From a virus (Duplodnaviria; Heunggongvirae; Uroviricota; Caudoviricetes): DNA of 64,000 nucleotides. The DNA is taken from IMG/VR virus record IMGVR_UViG_3300035698_019136, positions 35,573 through 99,572 of that record; one strand, given 5' to 3'. Positions 4,504-49,167 of this stretch are shown one piece after another. The notes under the pieces are model-generated. The model saw only the letters and a list, made by a program, of their open reading frames with translations, did not search any database and was not told the origin of the DNA. Each line of letters opens with the position of its first letter. Positions within the stretch are counted from its first letter, which is position 1. The position numbers and the translations under genes were made by a program.

Positions 4504-4659
4504 GAAGTTTGAGAAAAAATTTAGCAAGTCCTTTCAATATCCGAGCAGAAGGTCATTATTAGAGTTCCTTAAAAAAGAAGGCTACGTCATAGTTAAGAAA
4601 GAGGATGCAATGCAAAATGGAGGAATGTTGACACCTAAAGAATTGGGGTTGGTGTAGCA

Positions 4660-5076
4660 ATGGACAAAAGTAAAACTCACATAGCTATGGCCGATTGTCC
4701 TGAGATCCAGGATAGGTGGGAACCTGAAGATGGGGATTGGGGATATTCTATAAGAGGTGGTGTTCAGTGTATACATGAGGGAACCATTTTATTGGGAGAG
4801 TTACTGTCAAGGCTGAAACACGATTTTATTTACCTTCCTAGCCAACGCCAGTATCAGGATATGATTAATTGGAAGACTAATTATACTATTTCTATGTGGG
4901 ATTCATCGGCAGAAGGGATAATACAAAGGTTGCATATGGAAGTAGAATTTTGTGGTGAAACTGTTTATTATTTTCTTGCCGATACAGTGGAACAACTCTG
5001 GTGTAAATTCTATATGAAGGACACTCATAACAAGACATGGAGTGGTGAAAAATGGACAAAAGTAAAACTCACATAG
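4660..5076 (+). CDS. hypothetical protein, tandem paralog A (MDKSKTHIAMADCPEIQ...)
   Basis: Shares its N-terminus (MDKSKTHIAMA-C-EIQD-WE) and C-terminus (NKTW-GEKWTK) with the next ORF. Confidence 0.4.
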   Translation: MDKSKTHIAMADCPEIQDRWEPEDGDWGYSIRGGVQCIHEGTILLGELLSRLKHDFIYLPSQRQYQDMINWKTNYTISMWDSSAEGIIQRLHMEVEFCGETVYYFLADTVEQLWCKFYMKDTHNKTWSGEKWTKVKLT

Positions 5077-5435
5077 CTATGGCCAATTGCTCTGAGATCC
5101 AGGATGGGTGGGAACTAAAGTGGGGTGATTTTGTGTGGAGGAAGGAAGAGGGTGGTGGGGTAATAGTTCTAATGACCTCTAATTATCTGGAAGATTATGG
5201 CTTCCTCCCCCGCCAAGACCAGTATTGGGATATGGTTGCAGATTCTCTCAACTGTATTCACGAAAGAGGCCATTGGTGTCAAGATTGCCATGAAGAAGTA
5301 GGTAGGTTTATGAGAAGTGATCACCCGTCGATACTTAATTTATTAATAAAAAATGATCATCTAACAAGAGAAACAGTTTTATGTGCTTTCTATATGAGAA
5401 ACAAGACATGGGACGGAGAGAAGTGGACAAAGTAA
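5052..5435 (+). CDS. hypothetical protein, tandem paralog B
   Basis: Paralog of 4660-5076. Its start codon overlaps the 3' end of paralog A. Confidence 0.4.
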   Translation: MDKSKTHIAMANCSEIQDGWELKWGDFVWRKEEGGGVIVLMTSNYLEDYGFLPRQDQYWDMVADSLNCIHERGHWCQDCHEEVGRFMRSDHPSILNLLIKNDHLTRETVLCAFYMRNKTWDGEKWTK

Positions 5436-5604: not shown

Positions 5605-5805
5605 ATGGATAAATTCATAGAAGGGCTAGTTACACCATATATACTTATTATTCAGTATATAAGTAAAGATATTTCTTTATTAGGATGTTATCAATTAGGA
5701 TTTTTTATTGGCATAATATTGATATCATTACCAATTGTGGCATTAATTTTTTTGTTTAATTATTTAATGAATAAAATAGAATGGGATCAAAGATCTGGCA
5801 TATAG
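5605..5805 (+). CDS. small membrane protein
   Basis: Long hydrophobic stretches (ILIIQYI..., IILISLPIVALIFLF). Confidence 0.3.
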   Translation: MDKFIEGLVTPYILIIQYISKDISLLGCYQLGFFIGIILISLPIVALIFLFNYLMNKIEWDQRSGI

Positions 5806-6092
5806 GACACTCAGTTACCCTTCCTTCCTCCTTATTTAATAATTATATGAGAGAAATGGGAGATTGCACAGTAAATTCTAATAGTGAGAAATTTGTAGGA
5901 TTCCATATAACGAAAAAGTATGAGGGCAGAGTAATTTCAGATAACGATTGTATGTCTGCTTACGCTGCTTCTTTTCAGTGTCCTTATTGTAGAAAAACAG
6001 TTAGATTTATTTATGATATATATGATGGGCTACAAAAAGCAAAGGTTCGATGTGATAGGTGTGAGTCAGTTCCATATATAGTTAGTTTATAA
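5781..6092 (+). CDS. Cys-rich zinc-finger-like protein
   Basis: CPYCRK...CDRC pairs. Confidence 0.3.
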   Translation: MGSKIWHIGHSVTLPSSLFNNYMREMGDCTVNSNSEKFVGFHITKKYEGRVISDNDCMSAYAASFQCPYCRKTVRFIYDIYDGLQKAKVRCDRCESVPYIVSL

Positions 6093-7145: not shown

Positions 7146-7580
7146 ATGAAAGAGATAGATAAAATACGTCAAATATTTGAAGATAGAAAGGAATTATTTA
7201 CAAAAAAGAATGAGAACTATGGGAATTCATTTAGAAAGACTGGGCAGATATTGAAGGTTATTTTTGAAGAGCCTGTAAAATTGGATACTGAAGATGATTA
7301 TGTGGCATTTGGTTTAATAGTAAGGAAATTAGATAAGATAGTGAGATATTGCAATCTAAGATTTACAGGGGAAAAAGACAAAGTGGGGGAATCGATAAAG
7401 GATACAATAGGAGATGATGGAGTATATTCGTTTATTTTACAAGGAGTAGAGGAGAGAAAGGAAAAGCAAATGATACCACCTATTTATAGTTGGGTATGCA
7501 GCAAAGGGCATAGGGTAGAAGGATGGGTAACTGAGTGTCCTATATGCCAGAAATTATTAAATAAGGAGGAAGGAAAATGA
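7146..7580 (+). CDS. hypothetical protein with C-terminal zinc ribbon
   Basis: C-terminal motif CSKGH...CPIC. ATG at 7146 follows GAGGGAAAG. Confidence 0.35.
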   Translation: MKEIDKIRQIFEDRKELFTKKNENYGNSFRKTGQILKVIFEEPVKLDTEDDYVAFGLIVRKLDKIVRYCNLRFTGEKDKVGESIKDTIGDDGVYSFILQGVEERKEKQMIPPIYSWVCSKGHRVEGWVTECPICQKLLNKEEGK

Positions 7581-7870
7581 GGATGACATTAAAAGAATGG
7601 AAAGAGGGGGCTAGAAAAGGTATATCAGGATATATGGTATGGGATATACTTGGGGATTGGGAAGAAGATAGAGAGAAAATAAAGGGTGTGGCATGGGCAT
7701 TCAAGGAAATGATAGAGCATACAGATCAGGATCTGTTTAAGAATGGTGTGGAATATATGGGGCAAGACGAAGGTTCTATAAAAGGATGGGAATATTTTAA
7801 AAAGATAAGTGATTTATATAAAGAATTGTTTGATGAATATGAAAATCCAGAATTGTTGGAGAAGAAATGA
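7577..7870 (+). CDS. hypothetical protein
   Basis: ORF with ATGA overlap. Confidence 0.3.
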   Translation: MRMTLKEWKEGARKGISGYMVWDILGDWEEDREKIKGVAWAFKEMIEHTDQDLFKNGVEYMGQDEGSIKGWEYFKKISDLYKELFDEYENPELLEKK

Positions 7871-8238
7871 GAAAGAAATATGAGAAAAGAAATAAAAGAA
7901 CAATAGATGTTTATAATGATTTAGCAGAAATGGCAGGCTCAAAGGTAGCTTTAGAGATGTATAGACGATTTAATGGAGAAATAGTTGTTTTTAGCCACAA
8001 AAAGCACACTTCATTTTATGAGAGTCTGGAAGAGTTGGCTGGGAAAGATATTAAAAAGGAATTCCAAGAAAAATATAAAGGAACTCAACGATATATAGGG
8101 TTTGGGATATTAGAAAGGAAAATGAGGAATGAGGAGATAAAAGAGCTTTTTGATGGAACTAATACACTTGATTTGGCTAAACGATTTAATTTGTCTTCAG
8201 CCATGATAGGAGTGGTAGTTAAAGGAAAATATGACTAG
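7867..8238 (+). CDS. putative DNA-binding protein with C-terminal helix-turn-helix
   Basis: C-terminal segment TNTLDLAKRFNLSSAMIGVV resembles an HTH. Confidence 0.3.
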   Translation: MRKKYEKRNKRTIDVYNDLAEMAGSKVALEMYRRFNGEIVVFSHKKHTSFYESLEELAGKDIKKEFQEKYKGTQRYIGFGILERKMRNEEIKELFDGTNTLDLAKRFNLSSAMIGVVVKGKYD

Positions 8239-8890: not shown

Positions 8891-10495
8891 GTGAATCAGA
8901 TACTTACTAGTTATGCTATAGTGTGTGATGCACTGGATGAATCAGAAGCTGTAAGGGATATCAATGTTTTTTGTAATAAGATACTTAAAGATGAGAAAGG
9001 TAAGGTTGTTGAGCAAGGAGATATTCATGCTGCCTGGCATGCTCATATTAAATACTGCTGGGACAGGGGGTTACACCCTATTATTCTTGCGCCCTGGGGA
9101 CATGGTAAATCGGTTCAGATAGTCATTGGGTTCCCATTATTTTGGTTAGGGGCTCACCCAGAAGAAAGAGTAAAAATAATATGTAATTCAGATGAGAACG
9201 CAAAGGCTAGGGTCACAGCAGTTGCGAGATACATAGAACATGATCAAGAATACAGAAAGTTTTTTCCACAAGTAAGGAAAGATGAGAATGAAAGCTGGAC
9301 AAAGCATGAGATATTTATCGAAAGACCTCCTGGAGTTATGTCTGTTGATGCTTCTTTACAGGCTAAAGGAGTATTTAGCACAGGTATTGGTGGGAGAATA
9401 GATTTGGCATTGTTTGACGATATAGTAGACAGGAGAAATGCAATAGAACAGCCTGAGTTAAGAAAGAAACTTCCTAATACATTTCAGGATACTTGGATGT
9501 CAAGACTAGAGCCACAAGGACATACTGTATATATAGGAACTCCTTGGCATAAGGACGATAATACTCATGTTATTATGAAAGATCCTAATTTTTGTACTAT
9601 AAAACAGGAAATATCAGAGGACTTTGGGAGAATTAAAACATCATTATTGAATGTGCCAGATGATGAACATCCTTTATATAAGATGTATCGAAAGAGTTCA
9701 GATGGAAATTCCGATTATACTAATCTTCCTTTATGGTCTAAGAAATGGGACAAGAAAACATTAATTAGAATATGTGGGAAGACAGCTACATCTAAGAGGT
9801 CATTTCAATTTGGTTTTAGGTTAAAGCCTCTTACTGATACAGATTTGATGTATCCTAGTTTTAAGAAATGTATAAGGTATGGATTAGCTCCCAAAGATGT
9901 GGTAGGAAAAGATTGGCTGTATTATACCGGAGTAGATTTATCGACTAAGACAAGAGCTGGGAATGTGATATTTACGTTGGGTCATAATCCTTCAAAGAAT
10001 ATAAAGGTTCCAGTAGATATAAGAAAGGGAGCTTGGACTTCTCCTCAAGTTGCCCATGAATTATCTGAAGTAGATAGGATATGGTCTCCAGAGATATTCA
10101 CAGTAGAAACAAATTCTATGCAAACGACATTGGTTGAGTGGATACAAGAAGAATCGGGGCAGTATAAGTTTTGGGATAGAATTGTTAGTTATCAGACTCA
10201 AGGGGATGTTAAAAGAGCTGAAGACGGATTGCCAGCAATGGAAGTAGAGTTTTCTAATGGGGGTTGGCAGATACTTATAGAGGAAGAGCATGATATAACT
10301 TGCGATTGTGGGTGGTGTACTTGGATAAGTGAAATGAATAGTCATCCATTTGCAGATAATATGGATACAATTATGGCTAGTTGGTTTGCTAGAGAAGGAT
10401 GCAAGATGGGGATAGCAGAAGAGTATTATGAGGAGTGGATCAATCCAGCAGAAGCTGGAATATTTGAAGTTCCATTAGATGATTTTGAGGGGTAA
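8891..10495 (+). CDS. terL: terminase large subunit
   Basis: Walker A-like LAPWGHGKS and Walker B LALFDDIVD in the N-terminal ATPase. The acidic C-terminal nuclease-like region includes TVETNSMQ. GTG start follows AGAGGA. Confidence 0.8.
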   Translation: MNQILTSYAIVCDALDESEAVRDINVFCNKILKDEKGKVVEQGDIHAAWHAHIKYCWDRGLHPIILAPWGHGKSVQIVIGFPLFWLGAHPEERVKIICNSDENAKARVTAVARYIEHDQEYRKFFPQVRKDENESWTKHEIFIERPPGVMSVDASLQAKGVFSTGIGGRIDLALFDDIVDRRNAIEQPELRKKLPNTFQDTWMSRLEPQGHTVYIGTPWHKDDNTHVIMKDPNFCTIKQEISEDFGRIKTSLLNVPDDEHPLYKMYRKSSDGNSDYTNLPLWSKKWDKKTLIRICGKTATSKRSFQFGFRLKPLTDTDLMYPSFKKCIRYGLAPKDVVGKDWLYYTGVDLSTKTRAGNVIFTLGHNPSKNIKVPVDIRKGAWTSPQVAHELSEVDRIWSPEIFTVETNSMQTTLVEWIQEESGQYKFWDRIVSYQTQGDVKRAEDGLPAMEVEFSNGGWQILIEEEHDITCDCGWCTWISEMNSHPFADNMDTIMASWFAREGCKMGIAEEYYEEWINPAEAGIFEVPLDDFEG

Positions 10496-11064: not shown

Positions 11065-12585
11065 TTGATAGGATTAGAAATAATACAGACGAAGTATAAA
11101 ATATGGCGTGAACAGGAAAGGTTAGAGTTAAGATCAATTGAATTAGCAAAGAAACAATTGGATGAGGCTGCTACTTATGCTCAAAGAGATGATGATGCTG
11201 GTTGGGACATGCTTTCTTCTGCTTCGAGGAGTAATATAGGGGATGTTTTATCAGAAGACTCTTCAGATGCTTCAAGAACTCAAAGTAGGAAGTTTGCAAG
11301 ATGGAATCCTCATGCTAGAGGTATATTGAGAAATCTAGTAAAGTTTGTTATAGGTAGAGGATTAACATTTGCCCCTAAGTTCCCTAAAGAAGTTTCTGAT
11401 AAAGTTAAGAAGCAGTGGATGGATCATTGGGATAAGTGGGTGAAGGCTGAGAAGTTTTTAAAGAAACAGAAAGAATGTATTCGCAGGTTGACTAGAGATG
11501 GGGAATTCTTTTTGGAGATGATTGATAATTTAAAAAGTGGGTTCCCTAAAATTAGATTTTTAGAGCCTGGTAGGATTAAGAATCCTGCTGGATATGTTGA
11601 TGGGAAGTTAAATGGCAAGGTTTTAGCAGGGAATCTTTCTTATGGTATTGAAACATCTAAGAAAGATATTGAAAAGGTGCTTTACTATTATTATTGTAAT
11701 GATGATGGGACACTAAAAAGAAGAATATCTGCTAAGAATATAATACATAAAAAGCTCTTTGCAGATAGTGATAGGAAAAGAGGATTTCCATTTCTTGAAA
11801 CTCTGTTATTTGATTTAAAGTCTTATAGAGAGTGGTTAAAAGATAGAATTATATTGAATAAGATTAGAACAGCTATAGCTTTGGTTAGGGAAGTTCAACC
11901 TGGAGTAGGAACAAAGTCTCAGATAAAAAGTCTTAGAGATGCTACAAAGGCTACAATTCCAGGAACAAAGTCTACTAAACTTCAAGTTCCAGAAGCAGGG
12001 ACTATGCTAACATCTAAAGGATTTACATATAAGTTTCTCACTCCTAATTTAGCGGCTGAAGATAGTGCTCATGATGGTAGACATATCTTATTAAATATAG
12101 CAGCTGGGGCAGGTCTTGCTGAGTATATGGTAACAGGAGATGCTAGTAATGCAAATTATAGTTCTTCTATGGTAGCAGAAAGTCCGGCAGTAAAAGAGTT
12201 TGAGGACATCCAAGATGAATCTAAGGATGCTTATATAGAGATATGGGATAGGGTTATGGCTAATGCAAAGAAATCATCCAAAGATGTTCCTGATATGGAT
12301 GCTCCTACTTGTGATTTAACTTTCCCAGTTCTTATAGCAAGGGATATCAAGAAGGAAGCTGATGCTTTTACAGGATTGCATCAAGAAAGAATACAGTCAA
12401 GAAAAACAGCTAGAGGAAAATTAGGATTAAATAATGAGATAGAAGATAAGAATTTTGAGGATGAACTAAATGATGAAATGGAATGGAATGCTGTTATAAA
12501 TCCTGAGCCAGAAAAAGAGCCGGAAGAAAAACCAAAAAAAGAAGAGCCTAAAAAGAAAAAGCCAAAAGGTAATGAGGAAGAGTAA
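11065..12585 (+). CDS. portal protein
   Basis: 506 aa, immediately downstream of terL, with a K/E-rich C-terminal tail. The internal segment LNIAAGAGLAEYMVTGD is portal-like. TTG start. Confidence 0.7.
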   Translation: MIGLEIIQTKYKIWREQERLELRSIELAKKQLDEAATYAQRDDDAGWDMLSSASRSNIGDVLSEDSSDASRTQSRKFARWNPHARGILRNLVKFVIGRGLTFAPKFPKEVSDKVKKQWMDHWDKWVKAEKFLKKQKECIRRLTRDGEFFLEMIDNLKSGFPKIRFLEPGRIKNPAGYVDGKLNGKVLAGNLSYGIETSKKDIEKVLYYYYCNDDGTLKRRISAKNIIHKKLFADSDRKRGFPFLETLLFDLKSYREWLKDRIILNKIRTAIALVREVQPGVGTKSQIKSLRDATKATIPGTKSTKLQVPEAGTMLTSKGFTYKFLTPNLAAEDSAHDGRHILLNIAAGAGLAEYMVTGDASNANYSSSMVAESPAVKEFEDIQDESKDAYIEIWDRVMANAKKSSKDVPDMDAPTCDLTFPVLIARDIKKEADAFTGLHQERIQSRKTARGKLGLNNEIEDKNFEDELNDEMEWNAVINPEPEKEPEEKPKKEEPKKKKPKGNEEE

Positions 12586-13088: not shown

Positions 13089-14174
13089 ATGCCTAAAGAT
13101 GTAAATCAACAGATATTAGATAGCATTCTCAGACATCTGCACTTTGTTAGAGCATATGAGAATCATATTTTGAAGAGTGAGATCCTTCCTATTCTTGTGA
13201 AAGCCAAGAAGGATATGCTGAAGAAGTATAATGATTTTGGCAAGAGAATAGGAAGGAAGAATCTCAATAGATTGACAAAGCAAGAAAGAGCAATGCTGGG
13301 TGTAAAGATGAGAGAGCTTGATGGGCTTATTAAGGTGGCAAACAGTAAGATATCAGGTGTAATGGATAAGAGACTTCTTCCTTTTGCTAAGTCAGAGGAG
13401 AAACTTTATCGTGGACTTATTTCAGATGCATTTCCTATTAGTCTTGGATTGAATAGACTTCCATTAGAGCAGTTGAAAAAATTAGTAGATGAACCATTGG
13501 GGGGACATAAGTATGCTGATAGATTGAAGAAGAATTATGGGGATGCTGTAGCAACAATGAAAACAGAAATTGGTGCTGGGATACTGAAGGGTGAGAGTAT
13601 GGTTCAAGTAAGGAATAGACTTATTGGAGTAGGGAAAGGAATGGGGGGGAAAGTAGGATTATTGATAGGGGACAGAGCTATAATGATAGCACGTAGTGAA
13701 ATTATGAGAGTGTCTAATGCTGTTAATGATCAGATTTATCGTGCGAATCAGGATATACTTAAAGGAGTTCAATGGGTTGCAACATTGGACTCCCGTACGT
13801 GCCCCCAATGCTCAATTCTTGATGGCAATGTGTATGATTATAGCAAAGGGGAAAGAGCACCTATAAGACCTCTTCATGTTTTTTGCCGTTGTGTTGTAGT
13901 AGGAATAACCAAGTCATGGAAAGAGTTAGGGGATGATAGCAAGATGGCAAAGCAGATGGATAAATTAGATCCAGGCTTACGAGCTACTATGTCAGGATAT
14001 GTTCCTGCTAAAGTGAAATATCCTACATGGTTTAATGCTCAGCCGGACAGTTTTAAAAGAAAAGTATTAGGCCCAGGTAGATTTGCATTGTATAAGAGTA
14101 AGGGATTATCTTACAATAGAATGGTTAAGAACGGTAGATGGATCACATTAAAGGATTTAGCTAAACTAAGATAA
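13089..14174 (+). CDS. head morphogenesis protein, SPP1 gp7 / Mu F family
   Basis: Hallmark motif ATLDSRTCPQCSILDGNVYD (D-x-RTC...C...DG). Position after the portal is typical. Confidence 0.75.
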   Translation: MPKDVNQQILDSILRHLHFVRAYENHILKSEILPILVKAKKDMLKKYNDFGKRIGRKNLNRLTKQERAMLGVKMRELDGLIKVANSKISGVMDKRLLPFAKSEEKLYRGLISDAFPISLGLNRLPLEQLKKLVDEPLGGHKYADRLKKNYGDAVATMKTEIGAGILKGESMVQVRNRLIGVGKGMGGKVGLLIGDRAIMIARSEIMRVSNAVNDQIYRANQDILKGVQWVATLDSRTCPQCSILDGNVYDYSKGERAPIRPLHVFCRCVVVGITKSWKELGDDSKMAKQMDKLDPGLRATMSGYVPAKVKYPTWFNAQPDSFKRKVLGPGRFALYKSKGLSYNRMVKNGRWITLKDLAKLR

Positions 14175-16054: not shown

Positions 16055-16216
16055 ATGACAATGCAAGAAGAAATGACATTAGTAGGAAAGATATTAGAGG
16101 TAACAAAGGATGTAGATGTAAAGAGATTACCAAAGTTATTTGGTATGTGCGTAGTATACAGAACAACTCAGAATTTGGAAAAGAAAATAGAATTTCCTAA
16201 AATTCCTATAAAGTAA
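16055..16216 (+). CDS. hypothetical small protein ending KIEFPKIPIK
   Basis: 53-codon ORF not in the track (below 60 aa). Its C-terminal peptide and 3' sequence are repeated at the end of the next gene. Confidence 0.3.
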   Translation: MTMQEEMTLVGKILEVTKDVDVKRLPKLFGMCVVYRTTQNLEKKIEFPKIPIK

Positions 16217-16226
16217 GGAGGTAAAA

Positions 16227-16673
16227 ATGTGTTTATATACAGTAAGGAGATCCTGCTATGAGATCAAAGGAAATGTTCATTGTTCAGATTGTCCTGATAA
16301 GATTATAAAAGGGTATCAGGTAAGGTGGTGGAAGAGAATAAAAGATGAGAAGGTAGTGTATGCAGGAAGATACCATCATAATCCAATGTTAGAAATAGGA
16401 GAATGGGAGAGTTCCTGCAATGGGCAGACATATATGCGATCCTGGCCAAGGGAGCAACCTTATCCTTTAGGATATCATATTTATGGGAATAAAAGAGATG
16501 CAATAAAGGAATGGGATAAAATGGGAGTGATAGTAGCTGTTATAGGAAAAGAGTTAGTAGCAGTTGGAAAGAACAAGGAAAGTGACAGAGGATTAACTTA
16601 TATTTGTAAAAAGATGAAAATAGTTAAAGAGATTAAAGGTAAAATAGAATTCCCTAAAATTCCTACAAAGTAA
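16227..16673 (+). CDS. hypothetical protein ending KIEFPKIPTK
   Basis: ORF in track with AAGGAGG RBS. Confidence 0.4.
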   Translation: MCLYTVRRSCYEIKGNVHCSDCPDKIIKGYQVRWWKRIKDEKVVYAGRYHHNPMLEIGEWESSCNGQTYMRSWPREQPYPLGYHIYGNKRDAIKEWDKMGVIVAVIGKELVAVGKNKESDRGLTYICKKMKIVKEIKGKIEFPKIPTK

Positions 16674-16674
16674 G

Positions 16675-16818
16675 GAATTATCCTATCGTTTTTAGTTTCG
16701 GAATTATCCTATCGTTTTTAGTTTCGGAATTATCCTATCGTTTTTAGTTTCGGAATTATCCTATCGTTTTTAGTTTCGGAATTATCCTATCGTTTTTAGT
16801 TTCGGAATTATCCTATCT
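16675..16818. repeat. tandem direct repeat, 26-bp unit GGAATTATCCTATCGTTTTTAGTTTC x5.5 (iteron-like)
   Basis: Five perfect head-to-tail copies plus a partial copy are read directly. Shorter CATACCTAT repeats and an A9 run follow. Confidence 0.9.
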
Positions 16819-16834
16819 ATATCATACCTATTAG

Positions 16835-16851
16835 ACCTATCATACCTATCA
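16835..16851. repeat. inverted-repeat arm ACCTATCATACCTATCA (partner at 23091-23107)
   Basis: Read directly; part of the CATACCTAT short-repeat tract. Confidence 0.8.
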
Positions 16852-17026
16852 TACCTATTGATACCTATCAAAAAAAAATACAAAAAAGTTTGATAATAAA
16901 ACTGGGCATATTACCGGTGATTATGTAAACTAACTACATAAAATAATAGTTTAAGTGCATGTTATTATTATAATAATAGGTGTTTTAGTGTGTCATATTA
17001 TTGGCACTTTCGCCAGAATATTGACA

Positions 17027-17055
17027 TTGACATAACATATTGGTATTATTATAAT
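17027..17055 (+). promoter_or_regulatory. consensus sigma-A promoter TTGACA-17 nt-TATAAT (tandem TTGACATTGACA -35)
   Basis: Exact -35 and -10 hexamers with 17-nt spacing are read in the sequence. Confidence 0.55.
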
Positions 17056-17157
17056 AATTGGGATTTATTGGTTAGGTGTCTATATTTTGACAAGTTCATA
17101 AAGTGAACACACTATTTAAAGTCTAAAAACAAGGTTTTATTTTGGCATGATGATCGC

Positions 17158-17165
17158 TGTATAAT
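17158..17165 (+). promoter_or_regulatory. extended -10 element TGTATAAT upstream of the first small early gene
   Basis: TGnTATAAT lies about 40 nt upstream of the 17208 ATG. Confidence 0.4.
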
Positions 17166-17207
17166 AGGGTTCTACTAACATAAACCTACAAAACAGGGGG
17201 AGAAATT

Positions 17208-17585
17208 ATGATTTATATAACAAACACATTTTCACCGTTAATGCTTAAAGATAAAGAAAATAACAATTTCAAGGGAAAAGAATATTCTTTAGAAGAGATT
17301 CAGGATTATATTGAATCTCTTTATGAGGATGGTAATCCAGAGGATATTGTTTCGGCAATATCACATGAGGTTACTGTCCCTTTGATCAATACCCTATTGG
17401 ACTTGCAATTAAAGTTTAATAGGGTATCTTTAGCTCTGGAACCGAATGATGTAGTACTTTGCATTATTCCCAAGTTCAGAGCCGAAAAGGCTAGAGAATT
17501 TACAAAAGAGGAGGTCGAACAGGCTGGTGTAAGATGTTTTAAGATTGTAATAGTAGCTAGTAAAATATATGTAAATTTTATATAA
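17208..17585 (+). CDS. hypothetical protein
   Basis: ORF with GGGGGAG RBS; first gene after the noncoding hub. Confidence 0.4.
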   Translation: MIYITNTFSPLMLKDKENNNFKGKEYSLEEIQDYIESLYEDGNPEDIVSAISHEVTVPLINTLLDLQLKFNRVSLALEPNDVVLCIIPKFRAEKAREFTKEEVEQAGVRCFKIVIVASKIYVNFI

Positions 17586-18359: not shown

Positions 18360-18935
18360 ATGGAAACTACTGATATAAAAAAACTAAAAGAAGTAAGCAA
18401 GGCATCAGCAACTAGAATACAAAACAATGGAATACTAGAAAATGTATATATTGATACAAATAAAACTCTAGTCAACAATAATATAGTAGATAGTGGACCA
18501 GGCGAAGCACTAGCTATAGGATGCGATGGACATATATTAGCTATGACGTCCATTGAGGTTGAAATTAATGGCAGTAGTAATGTCCAGATTCCAGCAGTAT
18601 TATTGGGAAAGTTTAAAGAGAGTAAAAATGGGGCAAATAACATAAGCATAACCCCGGATGACACTCGGCCGAATGATAGGAAAATTAGTATATTAAATAA
18701 AGAAGGCTGTCGGACTATACCATTAGATTATTTCGGAGAGTTTCCAGATTATGAAAAGGCAGTACCATCAGCTGATGGAGTTGTAAAAATTGGGTTAAAT
18801 GTTACTGTATTGAAAAAACTTCTCAGTTGCTTTAGCAAAGATGAAGTTATAACATTGTATGTCAAGGATGAGAGATCCCCGGTGTTAGTTACCGGGCAAG
18901 AAAAAACTGGTGTTATAATGCCTTGTAAAATATAA
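18360..18935 (+). CDS. hypothetical protein
   Basis: 191-aa ORF after the cassette TAAACTTATAAAAATAGGAGA. Confidence 0.4.
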   Translation: METTDIKKLKEVSKASATRIQNNGILENVYIDTNKTLVNNNIVDSGPGEALAIGCDGHILAMTSIEVEINGSSNVQIPAVLLGKFKESKNGANNISITPDDTRPNDRKISILNKEGCRTIPLDYFGEFPDYEKAVPSADGVVKIGLNVTVLKKLLSCFSKDEVITLYVKDERSPVLVTGQEKTGVIMPCKI

Positions 18936-22143: not shown

Positions 22144-22594
22144 AGATAAGCAGTATAGAAAAAGTTCTTTACTATTTGTTAAAAATACTATATAATAGAT
22201 ATATAGGGTATAGAACAAGAGAACATAATACAAATATTAAAATGTATGAATAGAGGAGGTATAAAATGAAGTAGAACAAAGCTAAGAAGTATTGGGGAAT
22301 AGAATGTATATAGGAGTGCTAGAATTAAGTTTTTAGCACTCTTATTTGTTGATATGTGCTATATAGGCGATAAAATAAATTATAGACTATAGAGGGAGAG
22401 TATGGAGTCATGACTTGATAAGAGTCAAGATATAATATATAATAGATATATAGAGTGCAAAAATACAGGGTATTATAATAAGAGTAGAGGACAACATGAA
22501 CAGAAAAATGAGCGAACTTCTTAAACCTTTTTTAAACAAAGGCTCTAATAAGAGTATTATAGCACTACAATGATACTACAATAGGAGTGTAATA

Positions 22595-22795
22595 ATGGGT
22601 AGATCAATAAAGGGTAATTGGGAATACAAGGGAGACAGAGAAGTATACACAAACAGGGTACTACACTATATTTTAACTAATGGCCTACAACTAAGTGATT
22701 TCCTCAGAGATATAAAGTATAAGGGTGTCATATTACCAGACAAATTAGTTACGGGCCTTTATGAGAGATTGACAGCTAATCCACTAAATGAATAG
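22595..22795 (+). CDS. hypothetical protein, tandem paralog 1 (WEYKGDRE-YTNRV-HYI)
   Basis: About 70% identical to the next ORF. Confidence 0.4.
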   Translation: MGRSIKGNWEYKGDREVYTNRVLHYILTNGLQLSDFLRDIKYKGVILPDKLVTGLYERLTANPLNE

Positions 22796-23012
22796 GAGTG
22801 CAATAATGGGGAAACCAAAAGAGAAAATACATAAGAGTGACTGGGAATACAAGGGAGATAGGGAAGAGTATACAAACAGGGTTATGCATTATATTATAGC
22901 TAATGGCTTGCAATTAGGGAAGTTCTTAGCTGATATAGAATATAAGGGTATTATATTGCCAGACAAATTGATCAAGGGTATCAAGGCCAGGCTATCATCT
23001 AACCCTTTATAA
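22788..23012 (+). CDS. hypothetical protein, tandem paralog 2
   Basis: Paralog of 22595-22795; also shares the upstream AATAGGAGTG(T/C)AATAATGG. Confidence 0.4.
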   Translation: MNRSAIMGKPKEKIHKSDWEYKGDREEYTNRVMHYIIANGLQLGKFLADIEYKGIILPDKLIKGIKARLSSNPL

Positions 23013-23085
23013 ATTCCAGGTCTCTCAGGCTCCTGGTCTCTCAGGCTCCAAGTCTTGCGGGACGGGCAAAGTCTGGAGGACTGAG
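23013..23085 (+). other. GC-rich structured element with direct repeat GGTCTCTCAGGCTCC x2 (terminator/RNA element candidate)
   Basis: A locally GC-rich segment in an AT-rich genome, immediately after the paralog pair. Confidence 0.35.
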
Positions 23086-23090
23086 AGGTA

Positions 23091-23107
23091 TTGATAGGTA
23101 TGATAGG
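23091..23107. repeat. inverted-repeat arm TGATAGGTATGATAGGT (partner at 16835-16851)
   Basis: Exact reverse complement of ACCTATCATACCTATCA at 16835-16851. Confidence 0.8.
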
Positions 23108-23510
23108 TAGCCCTACCCTAGTGGAAAAAATTAATTTTTTTGTAGTGGTTCAGTACCTAGCTCTTAATTATAACCAAATTTTTAGGCCATTTTCTATAAG
23201 TACATGAGATTATTAGACTTTTATGCCTCACAAAAACTTAATAGATTCATAGGAGATAAGTTATGATAGCACCAGGAATAATAGTAGCGATATTAGTAAC
23301 AGTGATAGGAATAGCAATGATAGTTGCATTTAATAAAGAATAGAAAAGAGGTTGTATAAATGAGTATAGTTAGTAAAAAAGTGTGGGGTTTTTTGGACTT
23401 TGGGTATAGATAAGTATAGTTGAGTATAAGAACTAGTAAAAAAACATCAGTTTGCTATAAAAAACAGTCTTAAATATGTAATTTTATTAAATAAAAAGGG
23501 GTGATACAAA

Positions 23511-25230: not shown

Positions 25231-26271
25231 ATGAAAGAGATTTTCGAAGCTGGAATGGATTTTAATCAGCTGAAAAGAAAGGTTCAAGAGATTGGTGATC
25301 CCGATCAAGCTTGTAAGGTTATTATAGAAGATATCAATTCGGGCAAACTTCCTGTGAATAAATGTTCTATCAGGGATATGTTTGAAGCGTTGACTACTTC
25401 TACTTTTCCCAAGGCTGTAGGTGCTCTTATTAATAAGAGTGTTATGTCCGGTTATGATTCTGTTGATACTATTGGTGATCAGTTAGTAGAAATTGTTCCG
25501 AGTAATAAGATGACTGAGACAGTTGTTGGTTTTGATGAGGTTGATACTCCTGATATCGTATTGGAAGGTATGCCTTATGGAGAAACTGGATTCGGTGAAA
25601 AATATGTAACCATGAAGAACATCAAACGTGGTCGTATTATATCTATTACTGAGGAAACAATTAAATTTGACCAGACAGGTCAGGTTATTCAGAAAGCTAA
25701 ATTAATCGGTGAAAAGTCCGCATTGAAAAGAGAGCAACTGATTGTTGAGGGTGTTATTGATAAAAATAGTACTGTCTATAAACCTGGTGGTATTGCCACA
25801 GCATTGTACCGAACAGGTACTCCTGCGAATAGTGTTACTACAGTTCTTGGTGAGGCTGGATTGGATGCTGTTGAGGCTTTAGTTGCTGCTATGACAGATG
25901 GTAATGGTGATAAGATTATGATAAATCAGGGTAATATGATAATCCTTACTGGACAAACATTGAAGAGACAGGCATGGGAACTTATGAATTCCCCTATGAC
26001 TTCTGAATCTGCTGATGGAGCGAAGAGTTATTTCAAGGGTATGTATACTCAGAAATATTCTCCGTTTATAACCAGTGCGACTAATTATTTTATCGGTGAT
26101 TTCAAAAAGGATTTTTGGTGGACTGAAGTTTATCCACTGCAACTCATGAAAAGAAAGATGATCGATACAGATGAGGGTTTTAAAAGGGATATTATTGCTC
26201 AGTTTAAAGCAAGATTTTATGGTACGATAGGCGCTGTTGATTATAAACATAGTTTTAAGGGCGGTGCTTAA
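25231..26271 (+). CDS. major capsid protein (HK97-fold candidate)
   Basis: 346 aa, downstream of the protease/scaffold, followed by a terminator-like hairpin. The composition is typical of a major capsid protein. Confidence 0.55.
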   Translation: MKEIFEAGMDFNQLKRKVQEIGDPDQACKVIIEDINSGKLPVNKCSIRDMFEALTTSTFPKAVGALINKSVMSGYDSVDTIGDQLVEIVPSNKMTETVVGFDEVDTPDIVLEGMPYGETGFGEKYVTMKNIKRGRIISITEETIKFDQTGQVIQKAKLIGEKSALKREQLIVEGVIDKNSTVYKPGGIATALYRTGTPANSVTTVLGEAGLDAVEALVAAMTDGNGDKIMINQGNMIILTGQTLKRQAWELMNSPMTSESADGAKSYFKGMYTQKYSPFITSATNYFIGDFKKDFWWTEVYPLQLMKRKMIDTDEGFKRDIIAQFKARFYGTIGAVDYKHSFKGGA

Positions 26272-27231: not shown

Positions 27232-27910
27232 TTCTAAATGGGAAACAGCTACTCTATTCAGTTACCAACAAATCAGTCCAGATAAAAATGTAATAGCTAT
27301 TAGGCATGATATAGATGATAAAGTAGATGTTGCTAAAAAAATGGCTTTATTAGAGCATGATATGAATATATATTCTACTTATTTTCTTCTAACTACCCAT
27401 CCTTATTATGAGGAAGGGATATATTATGCAAATTATTTATACCAGTTGGGTCATGAAGTGGGGTTACATCTTGATTTGGCTATTGTGTCCGCTGTTGGGA
27501 AATTGAATGCTCACCAGTATATAATGGATAAACTTTTAGAATTAGGAAAAATGGATATTGAGGTAAAAGGGGTGTCTTCTCATGGTTCTGAATTGGCGAG
27601 GGTGATGAAATTTAAAGGGTGGCAATATTTTTATGACTATGCTGAAAGAGAATATGCTATTCATTTTGAAGATGAGAAAGGGGGGTTTTTAACTCTTACT
27701 ATGGGGATTCATCCTCTAGCGGAGTATGGATTAACTTATGAGGCTATTAAATTAGAGAAACCTAATTATATTAGTGATTCTCATGGGGAAATAAGGATAA
27801 ATAGAGATTTAAAAGATCCTCCGAATACTGAGGAGGAACTATTTGATTTTATAGAGAATGGGACTGGTAAGACTATAATGTTACTCCATCCACAATATTA
27901 TGAGGTATAG
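27197..27910 (+). CDS. hypothetical protein, possible carbohydrate esterase/deacetylase-like
   Basis: IAIRHDIDD and HxxxxH patterns give only a weak resemblance. Confidence 0.25.
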   Translation: MRYQELLKKIADSKWETATLFSYQQISPDKNVIAIRHDIDDKVDVAKKMALLEHDMNIYSTYFLLTTHPYYEEGIYYANYLYQLGHEVGLHLDLAIVSAVGKLNAHQYIMDKLLELGKMDIEVKGVSSHGSELARVMKFKGWQYFYDYAEREYAIHFEDEKGGFLTLTMGIHPLAEYGLTYEAIKLEKPNYISDSHGEIRINRDLKDPPNTEEELFDFIENGTGKTIMLLHPQYYEV

Positions 27911-28149: not shown

Positions 28150-28229
28150 GTATTTCTATAAATGATCCCAGAGCAGAAGATTTGGTAAGACTATAATGTT
28201 ATTCCATCCACAATATTATGAGGTGTAAA

Positions 28230-31016: not shown

Positions 31017-31706
31017 ATGATTAAAGTAGATATTGGCAAAGAATGCACAGATGAGTATTGCAAGAAGGCAGTAGAGTCTATAAGTGGAATTCTCAATAGA
31101 GATTACGATGCCTGGGGACTCCCTACAATTCTTCAAATATCAGAAGGGACTACACCTATAAGCTACTTTAAAGAAGTCTTAGATTGTAAGACTAGAAATA
31201 TGATAAGAAAACCATCAAAATATAATATATTTTTTCGACAGGTAAAGAAAAACTTGGTTTTAAAGCAAGTGCATGAGATTAATACATCTTCTTTATTTAG
31301 GCAAGGAAGAATAATGAGTGAAGGGTATAGAAAATTTCCAAAGTATACTAAGTATGAAAGAAATTGTGATAAACATTACTGGCAATTTTATGGAGCTTTT
31401 AGTGAAGAGGGGAAATTTGATAGATTAATAGCTTACATATCTGTTTTAACATATAAAGAGTTGATTCTTGTTAGCCAGATTCTTGGTCACGCTGATTACT
31501 TAAAAACAGGGGTGATGAACTTCCTACTTTATTGGACTATTGTGGATATTATGAATTGGAATTCCTATGTTAAATATATTCAGTATGGTTTTTGGGGGTC
31601 AGGGGAAGATGGTCTAAGGCATTTCAAAAAGTCTATGGGGTTTAAGCCAATGGACATAAGAGAAGGTGAACACAGGGTTAGAAGGTATGATAGGTTTAAT
31701 AGGTAG
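31017..31706 (+). CDS. FemAB/CelD-like GNAT-fold acyl/aminoacyl-transferase candidate
   Basis: C-terminal LRHFKKSMGFKP matches the L-x-FKK-x-GF motif of FemAB/BioF2-like GNATs. Confidence 0.4.
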   Translation: MIKVDIGKECTDEYCKKAVESISGILNRDYDAWGLPTILQISEGTTPISYFKEVLDCKTRNMIRKPSKYNIFFRQVKKNLVLKQVHEINTSSLFRQGRIMSEGYRKFPKYTKYERNCDKHYWQFYGAFSEEGKFDRLIAYISVLTYKELILVSQILGHADYLKTGVMNFLLYWTIVDIMNWNSYVKYIQYGFWGSGEDGLRHFKKSMGFKPMDIREGEHRVRRYDRFNR

Positions 31707-48476: not shown

Positions 48477-49105
48477 AAACTATAACAGATGAATTTCATG
48501 GAATATTTTATAATTCAAAAACCACCTGGGAACAAACATATTGGAAAGGGATTAGAATATTAAAAAATCCTTTGGATTTATGGGTATTCCAAGAAATTAT
48601 TTGGAAGACAAGACCTGATTTAATTATAGAGACAGGGACAGGAATTGGAGGGAGTTCTTTTTTCTTTTTAGATATTATGAAAGGTTATGGGGGAGGGAAA
48701 GTTATTACAATAGATATTCAACCAAGATATGTATTTGACAATGCCATAAAATTTATACAGGGGTCTTCTATTTCAGAGGAAGTAATTAAGCAAGTAAAAG
48801 AATTAATATCGGATTATAGAAACTCTAAAATAATGGTAGTTTTAGATTCACGACATGAACAACCTCATGTTTTAAAAGAATTAGAATTATACAGTCCTTT
48901 TGTTTCTAAAGAATGTTATTTAGTAGTAGAAGATTCTAATATTAAAGGACATCCTATATTACCAAAAATAAAAGAAGAGGGTGGGCCATGGGAAGCAATT
49001 CAAGAATTTATGAAAAAAAATCAAGATTTTATTATAGATAAGTATTGTGAAAGATATATGTTATCTTTTAATCCTAATGGGTATTTAAAAAAAGTGGGGG
49101 AGTAG
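48473..49105 (+). CDS. CmcI-family (cephalosporin hydroxylase / rhamnosyl O-methyltransferase-like) SAM methyltransferase
   Basis: LIIETGTGIGGSSFFF and VITIDI motifs. Confidence 0.55.
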   Translation: MKTITDEFHGIFYNSKTTWEQTYWKGIRILKNPLDLWVFQEIIWKTRPDLIIETGTGIGGSSFFFLDIMKGYGGGKVITIDIQPRYVFDNAIKFIQGSSISEEVIKQVKELISDYRNSKIMVVLDSRHEQPHVLKELELYSPFVSKECYLVVEDSNIKGHPILPKIKEEGGPWEAIQEFMKKNQDFIIDKYCERYMLSFNPNGYLKKVGE

Positions 49106-49167
49106 CTTAATGGAAAGCCCCGAATTGTATCGGGAAGTTGCAGGTTCGAATCCTGCCTCCTCCACCA
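49096..49167 (+). tRNA. tRNA (anticodon region ATTGTAT: UGU/Thr if canonical) with atypical anticodon arm
   Basis: Hand-folded. The 7-bp acceptor stem GGGGGAG/CTCCTCC includes one G-T pair, followed by discriminator A and an encoded CCA. D stem GCTT/AAGC. T arm GCAGG-TTCGAAT-CCTGC. Confidence 0.65.

What the first reader, a model, noticed from the sequence alone, without database searches (positions are those of the whole stretch)
16675..17207. Iteron-like 26-bp x5.5 tandem array plus consensus sigma-A promoters in a 530-bp noncoding hub
Five perfect copies of GGAATTATCCTATCGTTTTTAGTTTC plus a partial copy are followed by CATACCTAT short repeats, an A9 tract and AT-rich DNA. Within this lie an exact TTGACA-17-TATAAT promoter (17027-17055) and an extended -10 (17158-17165) driving the small-gene block. 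Direct-repeat iterons next to an AT-rich region are the architecture of phage and plasmid replication origins. They could alternatively be operator arrays for an early-gene regulator.
Basis: partly seen in the sequence, partly recalled or inferred. Interest (0 to 1): 0.6.

Follow-up and report, generated by a model that had tools for sequence, protein, structure and literature searches.

The report
Phage early-promoter hub with repeat array
The largest gene-free stretch of this unknown phage holds its best host-type promoters, which point into a block of small genes led by an anti-CRISPR-family enzyme, with a perfect and probably recently expanded 26-bp repeat array just upstream; nothing tested marks it as a replication origin.

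Summary
Five perfect 26-bp units plus a 14-nt partial copy lie at 16674-16817. A 9/10-bp ACCTAT array follows at 16820-16870, then an A9 tract. The window's only perfect TTGACA-17-TATAAT lies at 17027-17055. All of this sits in the largest ORF-free gap of the window, 534 bp.

New findings:
- Three of the five best sigma-70-like matches in 64 kb are in this hub, including a leftward one.
- The first gene downstream (17208-17585) belongs to the DUF1874/AcrIII-1 ring-nuclease family and keeps the catalytic histidine.
- The 26-mer carries the same CCTATC core as the 9-mers, giving 11 CCTAT cores in one orientation within 190 bp.
- Parts of the 9-mer array recur inverted at 23082-23110 and 31683-31705.

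The origin reading fails every feature I could test. No initiator or other replication gene was recognised among the window ORFs scanned. The hub has no DnaA boxes. Its AT-rich part is not unusually easy to unwind. The 26-bp spacing is off helical phase, and GC skew does not turn.

No relative of the hub exists in any collection searched, so conservation is untestable.

Best reading: an early-promoter hub launching an anti-defence operon, preceded by a young tandem array that probably docks one DNA-binding protein. A neutral minisatellite is the main rival. The case is moderately interesting.

The parts
16227..16673 (+). Last ORF before the hub (148 aa). It is not a recognisable DNA-binding or replication protein.
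   Evidence: No Pfam or PHROG hit and no word-index homologue. An exhaustive HMMER search found 14 weak relatives of about 130 aa. Their alignment has invariant M1, G29, Y79, G82, H84 and other columns, with C2 nearly invariant. No PDB or Pfam match. The single-sequence AlphaFold model is unusable, pLDDT 31. Its last 48 aa are homologous to the preceding 53-aa ORF at 16055-16216 (D16, 60).
16674..16817 (.). Perfect tandem array: 5 x 26 bp GGAATTATCCTATCGTTTTTAGTTTC plus a 14-nt partial copy. It starts immediately after the stop codon of the upstream ORF.
   Evidence: Each unit carries one CCTATC core. The junction TAGTTTC|GGAATTA is an imperfect dyad with 5 of 7 Watson-Crick pairs. By my estimate that is no better than chance for a 26-mer. 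The exact unit is absent from viral, metagenome and genome collections.
16820..16870 (+). Array of five ACCTAT cores spaced 9, 9, 9 and 10 bp.
   Evidence: On the + strand CCTATC occurs 11 times in 64 kb, and 9 of those are in the hub.
16870..16887 (.). A9 tract (16870-16878) and A6 tract (16882-16887).
16963..16978 (.). AT-only palindromic element TATTATTATAATAATA, overlapping the -10 of the leftward promoter-like site.
   Evidence: (I1, D3). The exact 15-mer occurs only here and at 17044 in the window.
16967..16996 (-). Leftward promoter-like site ATGACA-18-TATAAT (11/12), pointing towards the repeat arrays.
   Evidence: No credible ORF lies downstream on the - strand.
17021..17055 (+). Two overlapping rightward promoters: TTGACA-17-TATTAT with a TG (11/12) and TTGACA-17-TATAAT (12/12). 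The -10 lies inside the second copy of the palindromic element, 17044-17058.
17158..17165 (+). TGTATAAT, a weak third promoter candidate with misplaced TG and no -35.
17181..17210 (+). Leader with Shine-Dalgarno sequence. It belongs to a 30-nt family repeated before four genes of the block (17181, 18330, 18933, 19398).
   Evidence: D4.
17208..17585 (+). First gene driven from the hub: a member of the DUF1874 / STIV B116 / AcrIII-1 (viral ring nuclease) family.
   Evidence: Pfam PF08960, E 1.2e-13; phrog_5063. tblastn hits to SIFV, SIRV1 and Fusobacterium phage homologues. A profile hits PDB 2J6B, 2X4I (SIRV1 gp29), 2J85 and 6SCF, and the invariant His53 aligns with His47 of 2X4I. His47 is the catalytic residue (paper 10.1101/778746).
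23082..23110 (-). Inverted partial copy of the right half of the 9/10-bp array (25/28 identical to 16843-16870), preceded by a 16-bp x 2.6 tandem repeat at 23015-23055.
   Evidence: (I2).
31683..31705 (-). Inverted partial copy of the left half of the 9-bp array (22/23 identical to 16825-16847), at the 3' end of ORF 31017-31706.
   Evidence: (I8).

Best explanation
The hub is a transcription start region, not a demonstrated origin.

Host RNA polymerase with its primary sigma factor would recognise the consensus promoters at 17021-17055. It would then transcribe rightward into a block of small accessory genes. The first of these is an AcrIII-1-family ring nuclease, an enzyme family that destroys the cA4 alarm signal of type III CRISPR systems. 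This is the layout of an immediate-early anti-defence operon.

The 26-bp x 5.5 array upstream is a young, lineage-specific expansion. It arose by slippage or unequal exchange between two 14-bp direct repeats. The expansion multiplied a CCTATC-core site that is also present in the adjacent 9-bp array. Together they give 11 CCTAT cores in one orientation within 190 bp.

I infer that this is a dense docking platform for one sequence-specific DNA-binding protein, of phage or host origin. That protein would shut off, insulate or time the early operon. One possible action is blocking read-through from the unterminated upstream head-gene operon or from the leftward promoter.

Shown:
- the repeats
- the promoter matches and their concentration in the hub
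- the family of the first gene, with its catalytic His
- the shared core motif and its two distant inverted copies

Inferred:
- that the promoters fire early
- that a protein binds the repeats
- what that binding does
For: Promoters:
- The only perfect TTGACA-17-TATAAT of the window is here.
- 3 of the 5 matches scoring at least 11/12 in 64 kb lie at 16967-17055.
- This is the largest non-coding gap of a genome whose genes all run rightward.

First gene:
- It matches PF08960/DUF1874. Its profile matches SIRV1 gp29 and STIV B116 structures with the catalytic His aligned.
- The family is an anti-CRISPR ring nuclease, and STIV B116 is expressed early (10.1101/778746).

Operon structure:
- Downstream genes are small and share conserved leaders (D4, D5).
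- The scan found no intrinsic terminator on the + strand between the upstream ORF and the promoters.

Repeats:
- 9 of the 11 + strand CCTATC hexamers of the window lie in the hub, and the 26-mer and the 9-mers share this core in the same orientation.
- The phased motif recurs at only two other places. Chance expectation is 0.035-0.4 per window, depending on the pattern used.
- The palindrome TATTATTATAATAAT occurs exactly twice, each time over a -10 element. This resembles operators of acr promoters.

Age of the array:
- Units are 100% identical at all 26 positions, there is a terminal partial copy, and no match exists anywhere else.
- These are the same signatures that were read as recent formation in Borg tandem repeats (PMC9879509).
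Against: - No binding protein is identified. No helix-turn-helix or other DNA-binding family was found among the ORFs flanking the hub that I scanned, so no Aca-like repressor is in sight.
- The array lies 210-350 bp upstream of the main promoter, which is far for a classical operator.
- The dyad inside the unit is no better than chance.
- Perfect identity of the units is also what a functionless minisatellite would show.
- No relatives exist, so there is no conservation evidence.
- The host is unknown. If it were an archaeon, the sigma-70 reading would fail.
- The repeats-plus-AT-rich layout is compatible with an origin whose initiator lies outside the window.
Confidence: 0.4

Rival explanations
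1. Neutral minisatellite. The 26-bp array is a recent slippage product in tolerant non-coding DNA and has no function of its own. Only the promoters matter.
For: - All five units are identical at every position, including positions that no binding site would constrain, and there is a terminal partial copy.
- The unit is unique to this place and absent from all collections searched.
- The unit length is not divisible by 3 and lies outside ORFs.
- No significant RNA structure on either strand.
- The internal dyad is at chance level.
- Young perfect tandem repeats of about 20 nt with flanking partial repeats are documented as fast-evolving features in other elements (PMC9879509).
Against: - It is the only long perfect tandem repeat in 64 kb, so the genome is not generally repeat-prone.
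- It sits in the main regulatory gap.
- It shares the rare + strand hexamer CCTATC, in the same orientation, with the adjacent phased array. I estimate the chance of this at roughly 0.001-0.01.
Confidence: 0.25
2. Replication origin. An initiator binds the 26-bp iterons or the 9-mers, and the A-tracts and AT-rich DNA to the right melt. Transcription from the flanking promoters may help.
For: - The layout matches described origins: direct repeats, a second repeat class, A-tracts, AT-rich DNA and promoters. Compare iteron plasmids (PMC4980987) and the non-coding origin region of the PLE satellite, which holds four repeat classes of which one is the iteron (PMC7145576).
- A leftward promoter-like site points into the repeats.
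- The 64-kb window is only part of the genome, so an initiator gene may lie elsewhere.
Against: - No Rep, O, RepA_N, DnaD-like, helicase or primase family among the window ORFs scanned.
- The flanking ORFs are a protein of unknown family and an AcrIII-1 homologue.
- No DnaA box with 1 mismatch or fewer in the hub, and the count for the window is at chance.
- The least stable 40-150 bp stretches of the hub rank behind more than 12 other places.
- 26-bp spacing puts neighbouring sites on opposite faces of the helix. From established knowledge, classical iterons repeat about every 22 bp.
- GC skew stays positive with no turn, though with all genes on one strand this test is weak.
Confidence: 0.15
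3. Genome-end, packaging or injection signal. On this reading the hub marks the boundary of a terminal repeat or the first DNA to enter the cell. It would resemble the repeat-rich left ends of T7 and T5 or the SPO1 host-takeover region, where repeats are followed by strong early promoters and anti-restriction genes.
For: - The order is repeats, then strong host-type promoters, then small anti-defence genes.
- The small-gene block from 16.9 to 23.1 kb is flanked by inverted copies of the 9-mer array (I2).
- The comparison with T7, T5 and SPO1 is from memory and is a lead only.
Against: - The block interrupts the head module: terminase, portal and Mu F-like protein lie upstream, and the capsid gene lies downstream.
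- The SPP1 gp7/Mu F-type head genes are typical of headful packaging, which has no fixed ends (established knowledge).
- Any pac site would be expected near the terminase genes, 6-8 kb upstream.
- No read data are available to test ends.
Confidence: 0.05
4. RNA-level element. The leftward promoter transcribes the arrays into a repeat RNA that acts as a decoy or regulator, for example a mimic of CRISPR repeats.
For: - A promoter-like site scoring 11/12 lies about 140 nt upstream of the array on the - strand.
- The neighbour is an acr-family gene. RNA anti-CRISPRs sit within 250 bp of a promoter and next to acr genes (PMC10651486).
- In one register the - strand unit ends in GAAAC.
Against: - No Rfam family, including the CRISPR-DR families, matches at E up to 10.
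- No stable fold on the - strand: z = -0.4 for three units and +0.6 for the region.
- The 26-nt units are spacer-less and in tandem, unlike described solitary repeat units.
- The host repeat is unknown, so similarity could not be tested.
Confidence: 0.04
5. Centromere-like partition site of a phage-plasmid. It would resemble sopC or parC/tubC arrays, or the omega heptad arrays of pSM19035.
For: Homogeneous tandem repeats, plus a short repeat present in three arrays of different size and orientation. This resembles such systems (comparison from memory).
Against: - No ParA, ParM, TubZ, ParB, ParR or ribbon-helix-helix family was found among the window ORFs scanned.
- No match in the plasmid collection.
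Confidence: 0.03

Closest known systems
Anti-CRISPR (acr) operons with a strong early promoter controlled through inverted repeats (acr-aca loci; AcrIII-1/DUF1874 viral ring nucleases)
   Same: - A consensus-strength promoter lies directly upstream of an acr-family gene at the head of a small-gene operon.
- A palindromic element overlaps the -10.
- The family member STIV B116 is expressed early (10.1101/778746).
   Different: - No helix-turn-helix Aca gene was found in the operon.
- The palindrome is AT-only and could be incidental.
- Described acr loci have no 26-bp x 5.5 direct-repeat array upstream.
- Anti-CRISPR activity of this protein is untested.
Iteron-type replication origins (plasmid Rep/iteron origins; lambda ori; RepA_N origin of the PLE satellite)
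   Same: Several identical direct repeats lie next to A-tracts and AT-rich DNA in a non-coding region that also carries other repeat classes and promoters (PMC4980987; PMC7145576).
   Different: - No initiator gene nearby.
- No DnaA boxes.
- An unremarkable unwinding region.
- 26-bp spacing instead of about 22 bp.
- The unit lacks the inverted sub-repeats converging on a poly-A tract that are described for RepA_N iterons.
Young perfect tandem repeats of large extrachromosomal elements (Borg TRs)
   Same: - Units are perfectly identical, about 20-30 nt, with a partial repeat at the edge.
- The sequence is unique.
- The location is intergenic or starts at a gene end.
- The genome has all genes on one strand, with A>T>G>C on that strand (PMC9879509).
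   Different: - Here there is a single such array in 64 kb, not pervasive repeats.
- The element is a tailed phage with terminase, portal and capsid genes.
- The unit is T-rich rather than A-rich on the coding strand.
Arrays of short contiguous repeats bound by one repressor at several loci (omega heptads of pSM19035; phi105 and L5 asymmetric operators/stoperators). Comparison from memory.
   Same: A short asymmetric motif is repeated head-to-tail in different numbers and orientations at three loci of one genome.
   Different: - No cognate protein is known here.
- Units are 9-10 bp.
- The two distant copies are not next to evident promoters.

Membership tests
Iteron-containing replication origin | Three or more direct repeats (iterons) in a non-coding region | tested here: met
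   5.5 x 26 bp and 5 x 9/10 bp.
Iteron-containing replication origin | Cognate initiator gene (Rep, O or RepA_N type, winged-helix) adjacent or nearby | tested here: not met
   No such family among the flanking ORFs or the other window ORFs scanned. The upstream ORF family has no DNA-binding match. An initiator outside the window cannot be excluded.
Iteron-containing replication origin | Distinct DNA-unwinding element next to the repeats | tested here: inconclusive
   AT-rich (GC 0.28), but the least stable hub segment ranks behind more than 12 other sites in the window.
Iteron-containing replication origin | Host DnaA boxes | tested here: not met
   No TTATCCACA with 1 mismatch or fewer within 16674-17207. 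The window total of 27 matches the chance expectation of 28.
Iteron-containing replication origin | Iteron spacing in helical phase (about 11 or 22 bp) | tested here: not met
   Period 26 bp, about 2.5 turns. The norm is from established knowledge of plasmid iterons.
Iteron-containing replication origin | Supports initiation (autonomous replication, marker-frequency peak, skew turn) | not testable with these tools
   Only GC skew could be examined: positive throughout with no turn. This is weak because all genes are on one strand.
Sigma-70/sigma-A type promoter | -35 TTGACA and -10 TATAAT separated by 17 +/- 1 bp, in intergenic DNA upstream of co-oriented genes | tested here: met
   12/12 at 17027-17055 and 11/12 at 17021-17049, unique in the window. 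The next gene starts at 17208.
Sigma-70/sigma-A type promoter | Mapped transcription start; bacterial host | not testable with these tools
   No RNA data. The host is unknown. Strong Shine-Dalgarno leaders and a Mor-family gene suggest a bacterium.
Extended -10 promoter (17158-17165) | TG one base upstream of the -10 hexamer (TGnTATAAT) | tested here: not met
   The sequence is TGTATAAT, so the TG abuts the hexamer. The best -35 matches 3 of 6.
AcrIII-1 / DUF1874 ring nuclease (gene 17208-17585) | Match to PF08960 above the curated cut-off | tested here: met
   51.5 bits against a cut-off of 26, E 1.2e-13.
AcrIII-1 / DUF1874 ring nuclease (gene 17208-17585) | Absolutely conserved catalytic histidine (His47 of SIRV1 gp29) | tested here: met
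   Invariant His53 in the motif SAISHEVT aligns with His47 of PDB 2X4I. Its role is described in 10.1101/778746.
AcrIII-1 / DUF1874 ring nuclease (gene 17208-17585) | cA4 cleavage and inhibition of type III CRISPR immunity | not testable with these tools
   Needs a biochemical or infection assay.
acr-aca operon | Co-encoded Aca repressor (usually helix-turn-helix) that binds inverted repeats in the acr promoter | tested here: not met
   No HTH or other DNA-binding family in the operon ORFs scanned. A palindrome over the -10 exists, but its binding is unknown.
RNA anti-CRISPR (solitary CRISPR-repeat unit) | Sequence and structure similarity to a CRISPR repeat of the host | tested here: inconclusive
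   No Rfam CRISPR-DR or other match at E up to 10, and no fold. The host repeat is unknown.
RNA anti-CRISPR (solitary CRISPR-repeat unit) | Promoter within about 250 bp upstream on the same strand; next to acr genes | tested here: met
   The leftward 11/12 site at 16996..16967 lies about 140 nt from the array, and an AcrIII-1-family gene is on the other side. Criteria are from PMC10651486.
Plasmid or phage centromere (parS/parC/sopC/tubC) | Adjacent partition NTPase and centromere-binding protein genes | tested here: not met
   None among the window ORFs scanned.

The most novel reading that the evidence does not exclude
The hub may be a two-armed anti-CRISPR locus. Rightward, it expresses an AcrIII-1-type ring nuclease. 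Leftward, the promoter at 16996..16967 would transcribe the spacer-less 26-nt tandem array, whose - strand unit ends in ...UUCCGAAAC in one register. That transcript would be a multi-copy mimic of the host's CRISPR repeat, a tandem RNA anti-CRISPR. It would soak up Cas6 or effector subunits and load complexes with guide-less RNAs. Tandem, spacer-less repeat mimics have not been described.
Probability: 0.04. Interest if true: 0.8.

Novelty: new member of a known kind. Interest (0 to 1): 0.35.

Why it matters
If the reading is right, the hub is the control point where an uncultured, very divergent phage launches its anti-defence genes. That gives a ready-made strong promoter and a candidate type III anti-CRISPR to test.

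The dense CCTAT-core array, with its two distant inverted copies, would define the recognition sequence of an unknown regulator. That makes the regulator easy to fish out.

If the array is instead only a young minisatellite, it is still a useful strain marker. It would also be an example of how phage regulatory gaps tolerate rapid repeat expansion.

If it proves to be an origin, it would be one whose initiator gene was not found near it in this window, set inside the head-gene module, which would be unusual.

Tried and rejected
1. Looked for relatives of the hub to test conservation and copy-number variation.
- The exact 26-mer gave nothing in viral, metagenome and genome collections.
- blastn of the hub against phages and plasmids gave nothing.
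- Protein-anchored searches with both flanking ORFs, the Mu F-like protein and TerL gave nothing, both as single proteins and as an alignment.
- The closest Mu F homologues (60-64% identity) sit on 2-3 kb contigs that end before the hub.
- DUF1874 homologues (43-52% identity) sit in unrelated contexts.
- Result: no comparative evidence.

2. Tested for structured RNA. No Rfam hit. Folds of the array, the whole hub on both strands, the 5' leader and the second hub were not better than shuffles. Rejected.

3. Tested whether the upstream 148-aa ORF is the array's binding protein or initiator. It belongs to a small family with no DNA-binding signature, and the structure model was useless. No support.

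4. Tested for DnaA boxes and an unwinding element. No support.

5. Examined the dyad inside the 26-mer. I estimate that 5 of 7 pairs is expected about once among the possible centres of a 26-mer. It is not evidence of function. Near-matches to the dyad elsewhere in the window are at chance.

6. Scanned IMG/VR for phased ACCTAT x 3. This gave more than 119 mostly coding 9-nt repeats. The one exact (TAGGTATGA) x 4 lies inside an ORF of an unrelated repeat-rich contig. Chance.

7. Tried to identify the host through the UDP-galactopyranose mutase gene. This gave only about 40% identity to diverse bacteria. Uninformative.

8. Literature search for 'bracket repeats' of terminal repeats found nothing.
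Full report
**The observation**

Tandem Repeats Finder reports one array at 16674-16817 with period 26, 5.5 copies, 100% matches and score 288. A second array at 16820-16870 has period 9, 5.6 copies and 81% matches. The 26-mer GGAATTATCCTATCGTTTTTAGTTTC has five exact copies. It has no other match in the window even with three mismatches, and none in 100 shuffles. A 14-nt partial sixth copy follows. The array starts at 16674, the base after the TAA stop of ORF 16227-16673.

An A9 tract lies at 16870-16878 and an A6 tract at 16882-16887. TTGACA-17-TATAAT at 17027-17055 is exact. It is the only perfect match on either strand of the 64-kb window.

Two details need correcting. First, the 'extended -10' at 17158-17165 is TGTATAAT. 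Its TG abuts the hexamer and it has no usable -35. Second, the AT-richness (GC 0.28-0.29) is ordinary for this 33% GC sequence. In a nearest-neighbour stability scan, the least stable hub segments rank behind more than a dozen other places.

**Context**

All ORFs of convincing size are on the + strand, and GC skew is positive in every kilobase. The hub (16674-17207, 534 bp) is the largest stretch without a + strand ORF.

Upstream lie:
- a Mor-family activator (7867-8238)
- the large terminase (8891-10495) and portal (11065-12585)
- a Mu F / SPP1 gp7-type head protein (13089-14174)
- a run of small ORFs

Downstream lie small genes up to 22143 and a second non-coding region (22144-23510). After that the head module resumes with a capsid-like gene at 25231-26271. 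The hub therefore opens a roughly 6-kb accessory block inserted in the head module. A distant relative also carries accessory genes between its Mu F-like gene and its capsid gene.

No replication gene was recognised among the roughly 70 window ORFs scanned. The annotatable genes are an SbcCD-like nuclease, head genes, an HNH endonuclease and a large glycan-biosynthesis cluster.

**Promoters**

A scan of the whole window for sigma-70-type matches of at least 11/12 gives five sites. Three are in the hub:
- the rightward TTGACA-17-TATTAT with a TG (17021-17049)
- the rightward TTGACA-17-TATAAT (17027-17055)
- a leftward ATGACA-18-TATAAT (16996..16967)

A fourth lies in the second non-coding region (22415-22443). 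The palindromic 15-mer TATTATTATAATAAT occurs exactly twice in the window. Each copy lies over the -10 of one of the divergent promoters, and the copies are 81 bp apart. The scan found no terminator-like hairpin on the + strand in the hub. Transcription from the upstream head genes would therefore read into it.

**The first gene**

ORF 17208-17585 matches Pfam PF08960 (STIV B116-like, DUF1874) at E 1.2e-13. It finds homologues in archaeal rudiviruses and lipothrixviruses and in Fusobacterium phages. A profile built from it and six homologues matches the solved structures AFV3-109, SIRV1 gp29 (2X4I, 6SCF) and STIV B116. The invariant His53 of the motif SAISHEVT aligns with His47 of SIRV1 gp29.

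This family is the viral ring nuclease AcrIII-1. It degrades cyclic tetra-adenylate and blocks type III CRISPR defence. His47 is its absolutely conserved catalytic residue, and STIV B116 is expressed early (10.1101/778746). A consensus host-type promoter in front of an anti-CRISPR-family gene at the head of a string of small genes is the pattern of an immediate-early anti-defence operon. The early timing is inferred, not shown.

**The repeats**

The 26-mer and the 9-mers share a core. On the + strand, where C is rare (10.8%), CCTATC occurs 11 times in 64 kb, and 9 of these are in the hub. Counting the variant CCTATT, the hub has 11 CCTAT cores in one orientation between 16682 and 16864. Six are spaced 26 bp apart and five are spaced 9-10 bp apart.

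The phased motif is not confined to the hub. ACCTATNRNACCTAT with one mismatch or fewer is expected 0.27 times and is found six times. Three phased AGGT cores occur only at the hub, at 23082-23110 and at 31683-31705, against a shuffle mean of 0.035. The two distant copies are inverted relative to the hub. They resemble specific halves of the hub array:
- 25/28 identical to 16843-16870, including the single 10-nt unit
- 22/23 identical to 16825-16847

The copy at 23.1 kb and the hub copy flank the accessory block as inverted repeats. No recombinase or transposase lies between them. I could not explain this arrangement (note).

The imperfect dyad TAGTTTC|GGAATTA at the unit junction is, by my estimate, no better than chance. 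It has no excess of near-matches elsewhere.

**RNA readings**

No Rfam family matches the hub at E up to 10. Folding of three units, of the whole repeat region on either strand, and of the 5' leader is not better than shuffled controls.

**Comparative evidence**

There is none. The 26-mer is absent from the viral, metagenome and genome collections. The hub has no blastn match in phages or plasmids. Protein-anchored searches found no close locus. The nearest Mu F homologues lie on contigs that end before the hub.

The upstream 148-aa ORF has only weak relatives of about 130 aa. They form a family with invariant M1, G29, Y79, G82, H84 and other columns (C2 nearly invariant) and no DNA-binding or initiator match.

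**Weighing the explanations**

The origin model is supported by layout only. It resembles iteron origins (PMC4980987) and the multi-repeat non-coding origin of the PLE satellite (PMC7145576). It lacks an initiator gene, DnaA boxes, an outstanding unwinding element, helical phasing and a skew turn. It is not refuted, because the window is only part of the genome.

The perfect identity of all 26 positions in five units, the terminal partial copy and the uniqueness of the sequence point to recent expansion. These are the signatures discussed for Borg tandem repeats (PMC9879509). That is compatible with a functionless minisatellite. The shared rare core, the single-orientation density and the recurrence of the short repeat elsewhere argue that the expansion multiplied a real protein-binding site.

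My best reading (0.4) is an early-promoter hub for an anti-defence operon with an upstream multi-site docking platform for an unidentified DNA-binding protein. The rivals are:
- neutral minisatellite, 0.25
- origin, 0.15
- terminus or packaging signal, 0.05
- RNA decoy, 0.04
- centromere, 0.03

**Novelty and interest**

Tandem binding-site arrays next to phage early promoters or origins are a known kind of feature. This one has no sequence relatives, so it is a new member rather than a new kind. The link to an AcrIII-1-family gene and the dispersed inverted copies of the short array are the most useful new facts. Interest is 0.35.

Noticed in passing
window 17208-17585: The first gene after the hub is a DUF1874/AcrIII-1-family protein (viral ring nuclease, anti-type III CRISPR) with the catalytic histidine conserved (His53 aligns with His47 of SIRV1 gp29).
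   Followed up: yes
window 23082-23110 and 31683-31705: Inverted partial copies of the hub's 9/10-bp ACCTAT array. One matches its right half and the other its left half. The first, together with the hub copy, flanks the 6.2-kb small-gene block as inverted repeats. Function unknown.
   Followed up: partly
window 22144-23510: A second non-coding hub. It holds two 55-nt promoter-like repeats (22185-22239 and 22432-22486), a 15-bp-stem terminator-like hairpin (22310-22345) that could close a roughly 140-nt small transcript, a 16-bp x 2.6 tandem repeat (23015-23055), and two paralogous small ORFs (22595-22795 and 22788-23012).
   Followed up: partly
window 29206-58506: A cluster of about 25-30 kb inside the phage, after the capsid genes. 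It encodes many glycosyltransferases, two B12-binding radical SAM enzymes, a SPASM radical SAM enzyme, UDP-galactopyranose mutase, methyltransferases and a protein-kinase-like ORF. A beta-helix protein follows at 58588-60591. This could serve virion or cell-surface glycan synthesis, or DNA modification.
   Followed up: partly
window 17181, 18330, 18933, 19398; and 21206, 21748, 21944: Two families of conserved 30-36-nt leaders (stop codon, spacer, Shine-Dalgarno, ATG) are repeated in front of consecutive small genes of the accessory block. This suggests cassette-like duplication or exchange.
   Followed up: no
window 5794-5844 and 7510-7575 (also 1945-1968): Inverted repeats of 42 nt (90%) and 24 nt (100%) flank a 1.7-kb segment that contains an SbcC-like ATPase ORF. 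The repeated sequence includes a ribosome-binding-site-like GGAGGAAGGA.
   Followed up: no
window 16055-16216 and 16227-16673: The two ORFs before the hub share a homologous C-terminal domain ending KIEFPKIP(I/T)K and a 36-nt, 94% identical DNA repeat across their stop codons. The 148-aa ORF belongs to a small family of about 130-aa proteins with an invariant His in a GFH motif and a nearly invariant Cys at position 2. A Cys/His hydrolase is my speculation only.
   Followed up: partly
window 18360-18935: A 191-aa ORF whose C-terminus resembles the last domain of DNA polymerase sliding clamps (phrog_947; weak PCNA_N hit). It could be a clamp fragment or mimic in the accessory block.
   Followed up: no
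L002 970-2424 (ENA ERZ27256808 k141_519125): The closest Mu F-like homologue (62% identity) carries an intein-type insertion (PT-HINT / Intein_splicing hits) that is absent from the window's gene.
   Followed up: no
window 49096-49167: A single tRNA gene (Rfam 53.8 bits). ARAGORN could not assign a normal anticodon ('tRNA-???, anticodon (tg)').
   Followed up: no
window 7867-8238: A Mor-family transcription activator gene lies just upstream of the terminase genes. Its position would fit a role in late-gene activation; I did not test this.
   Followed up: no
window 4659-4723 and 5051-5115; 27865-27909 and 28183-28227: Near-identical direct repeats of 65 nt (94%) and 45 nt (96%). The first pair lies at the starts of ORFs 4660-5076 and 5052-5435, which suggests recent local duplication.
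   Followed up: no
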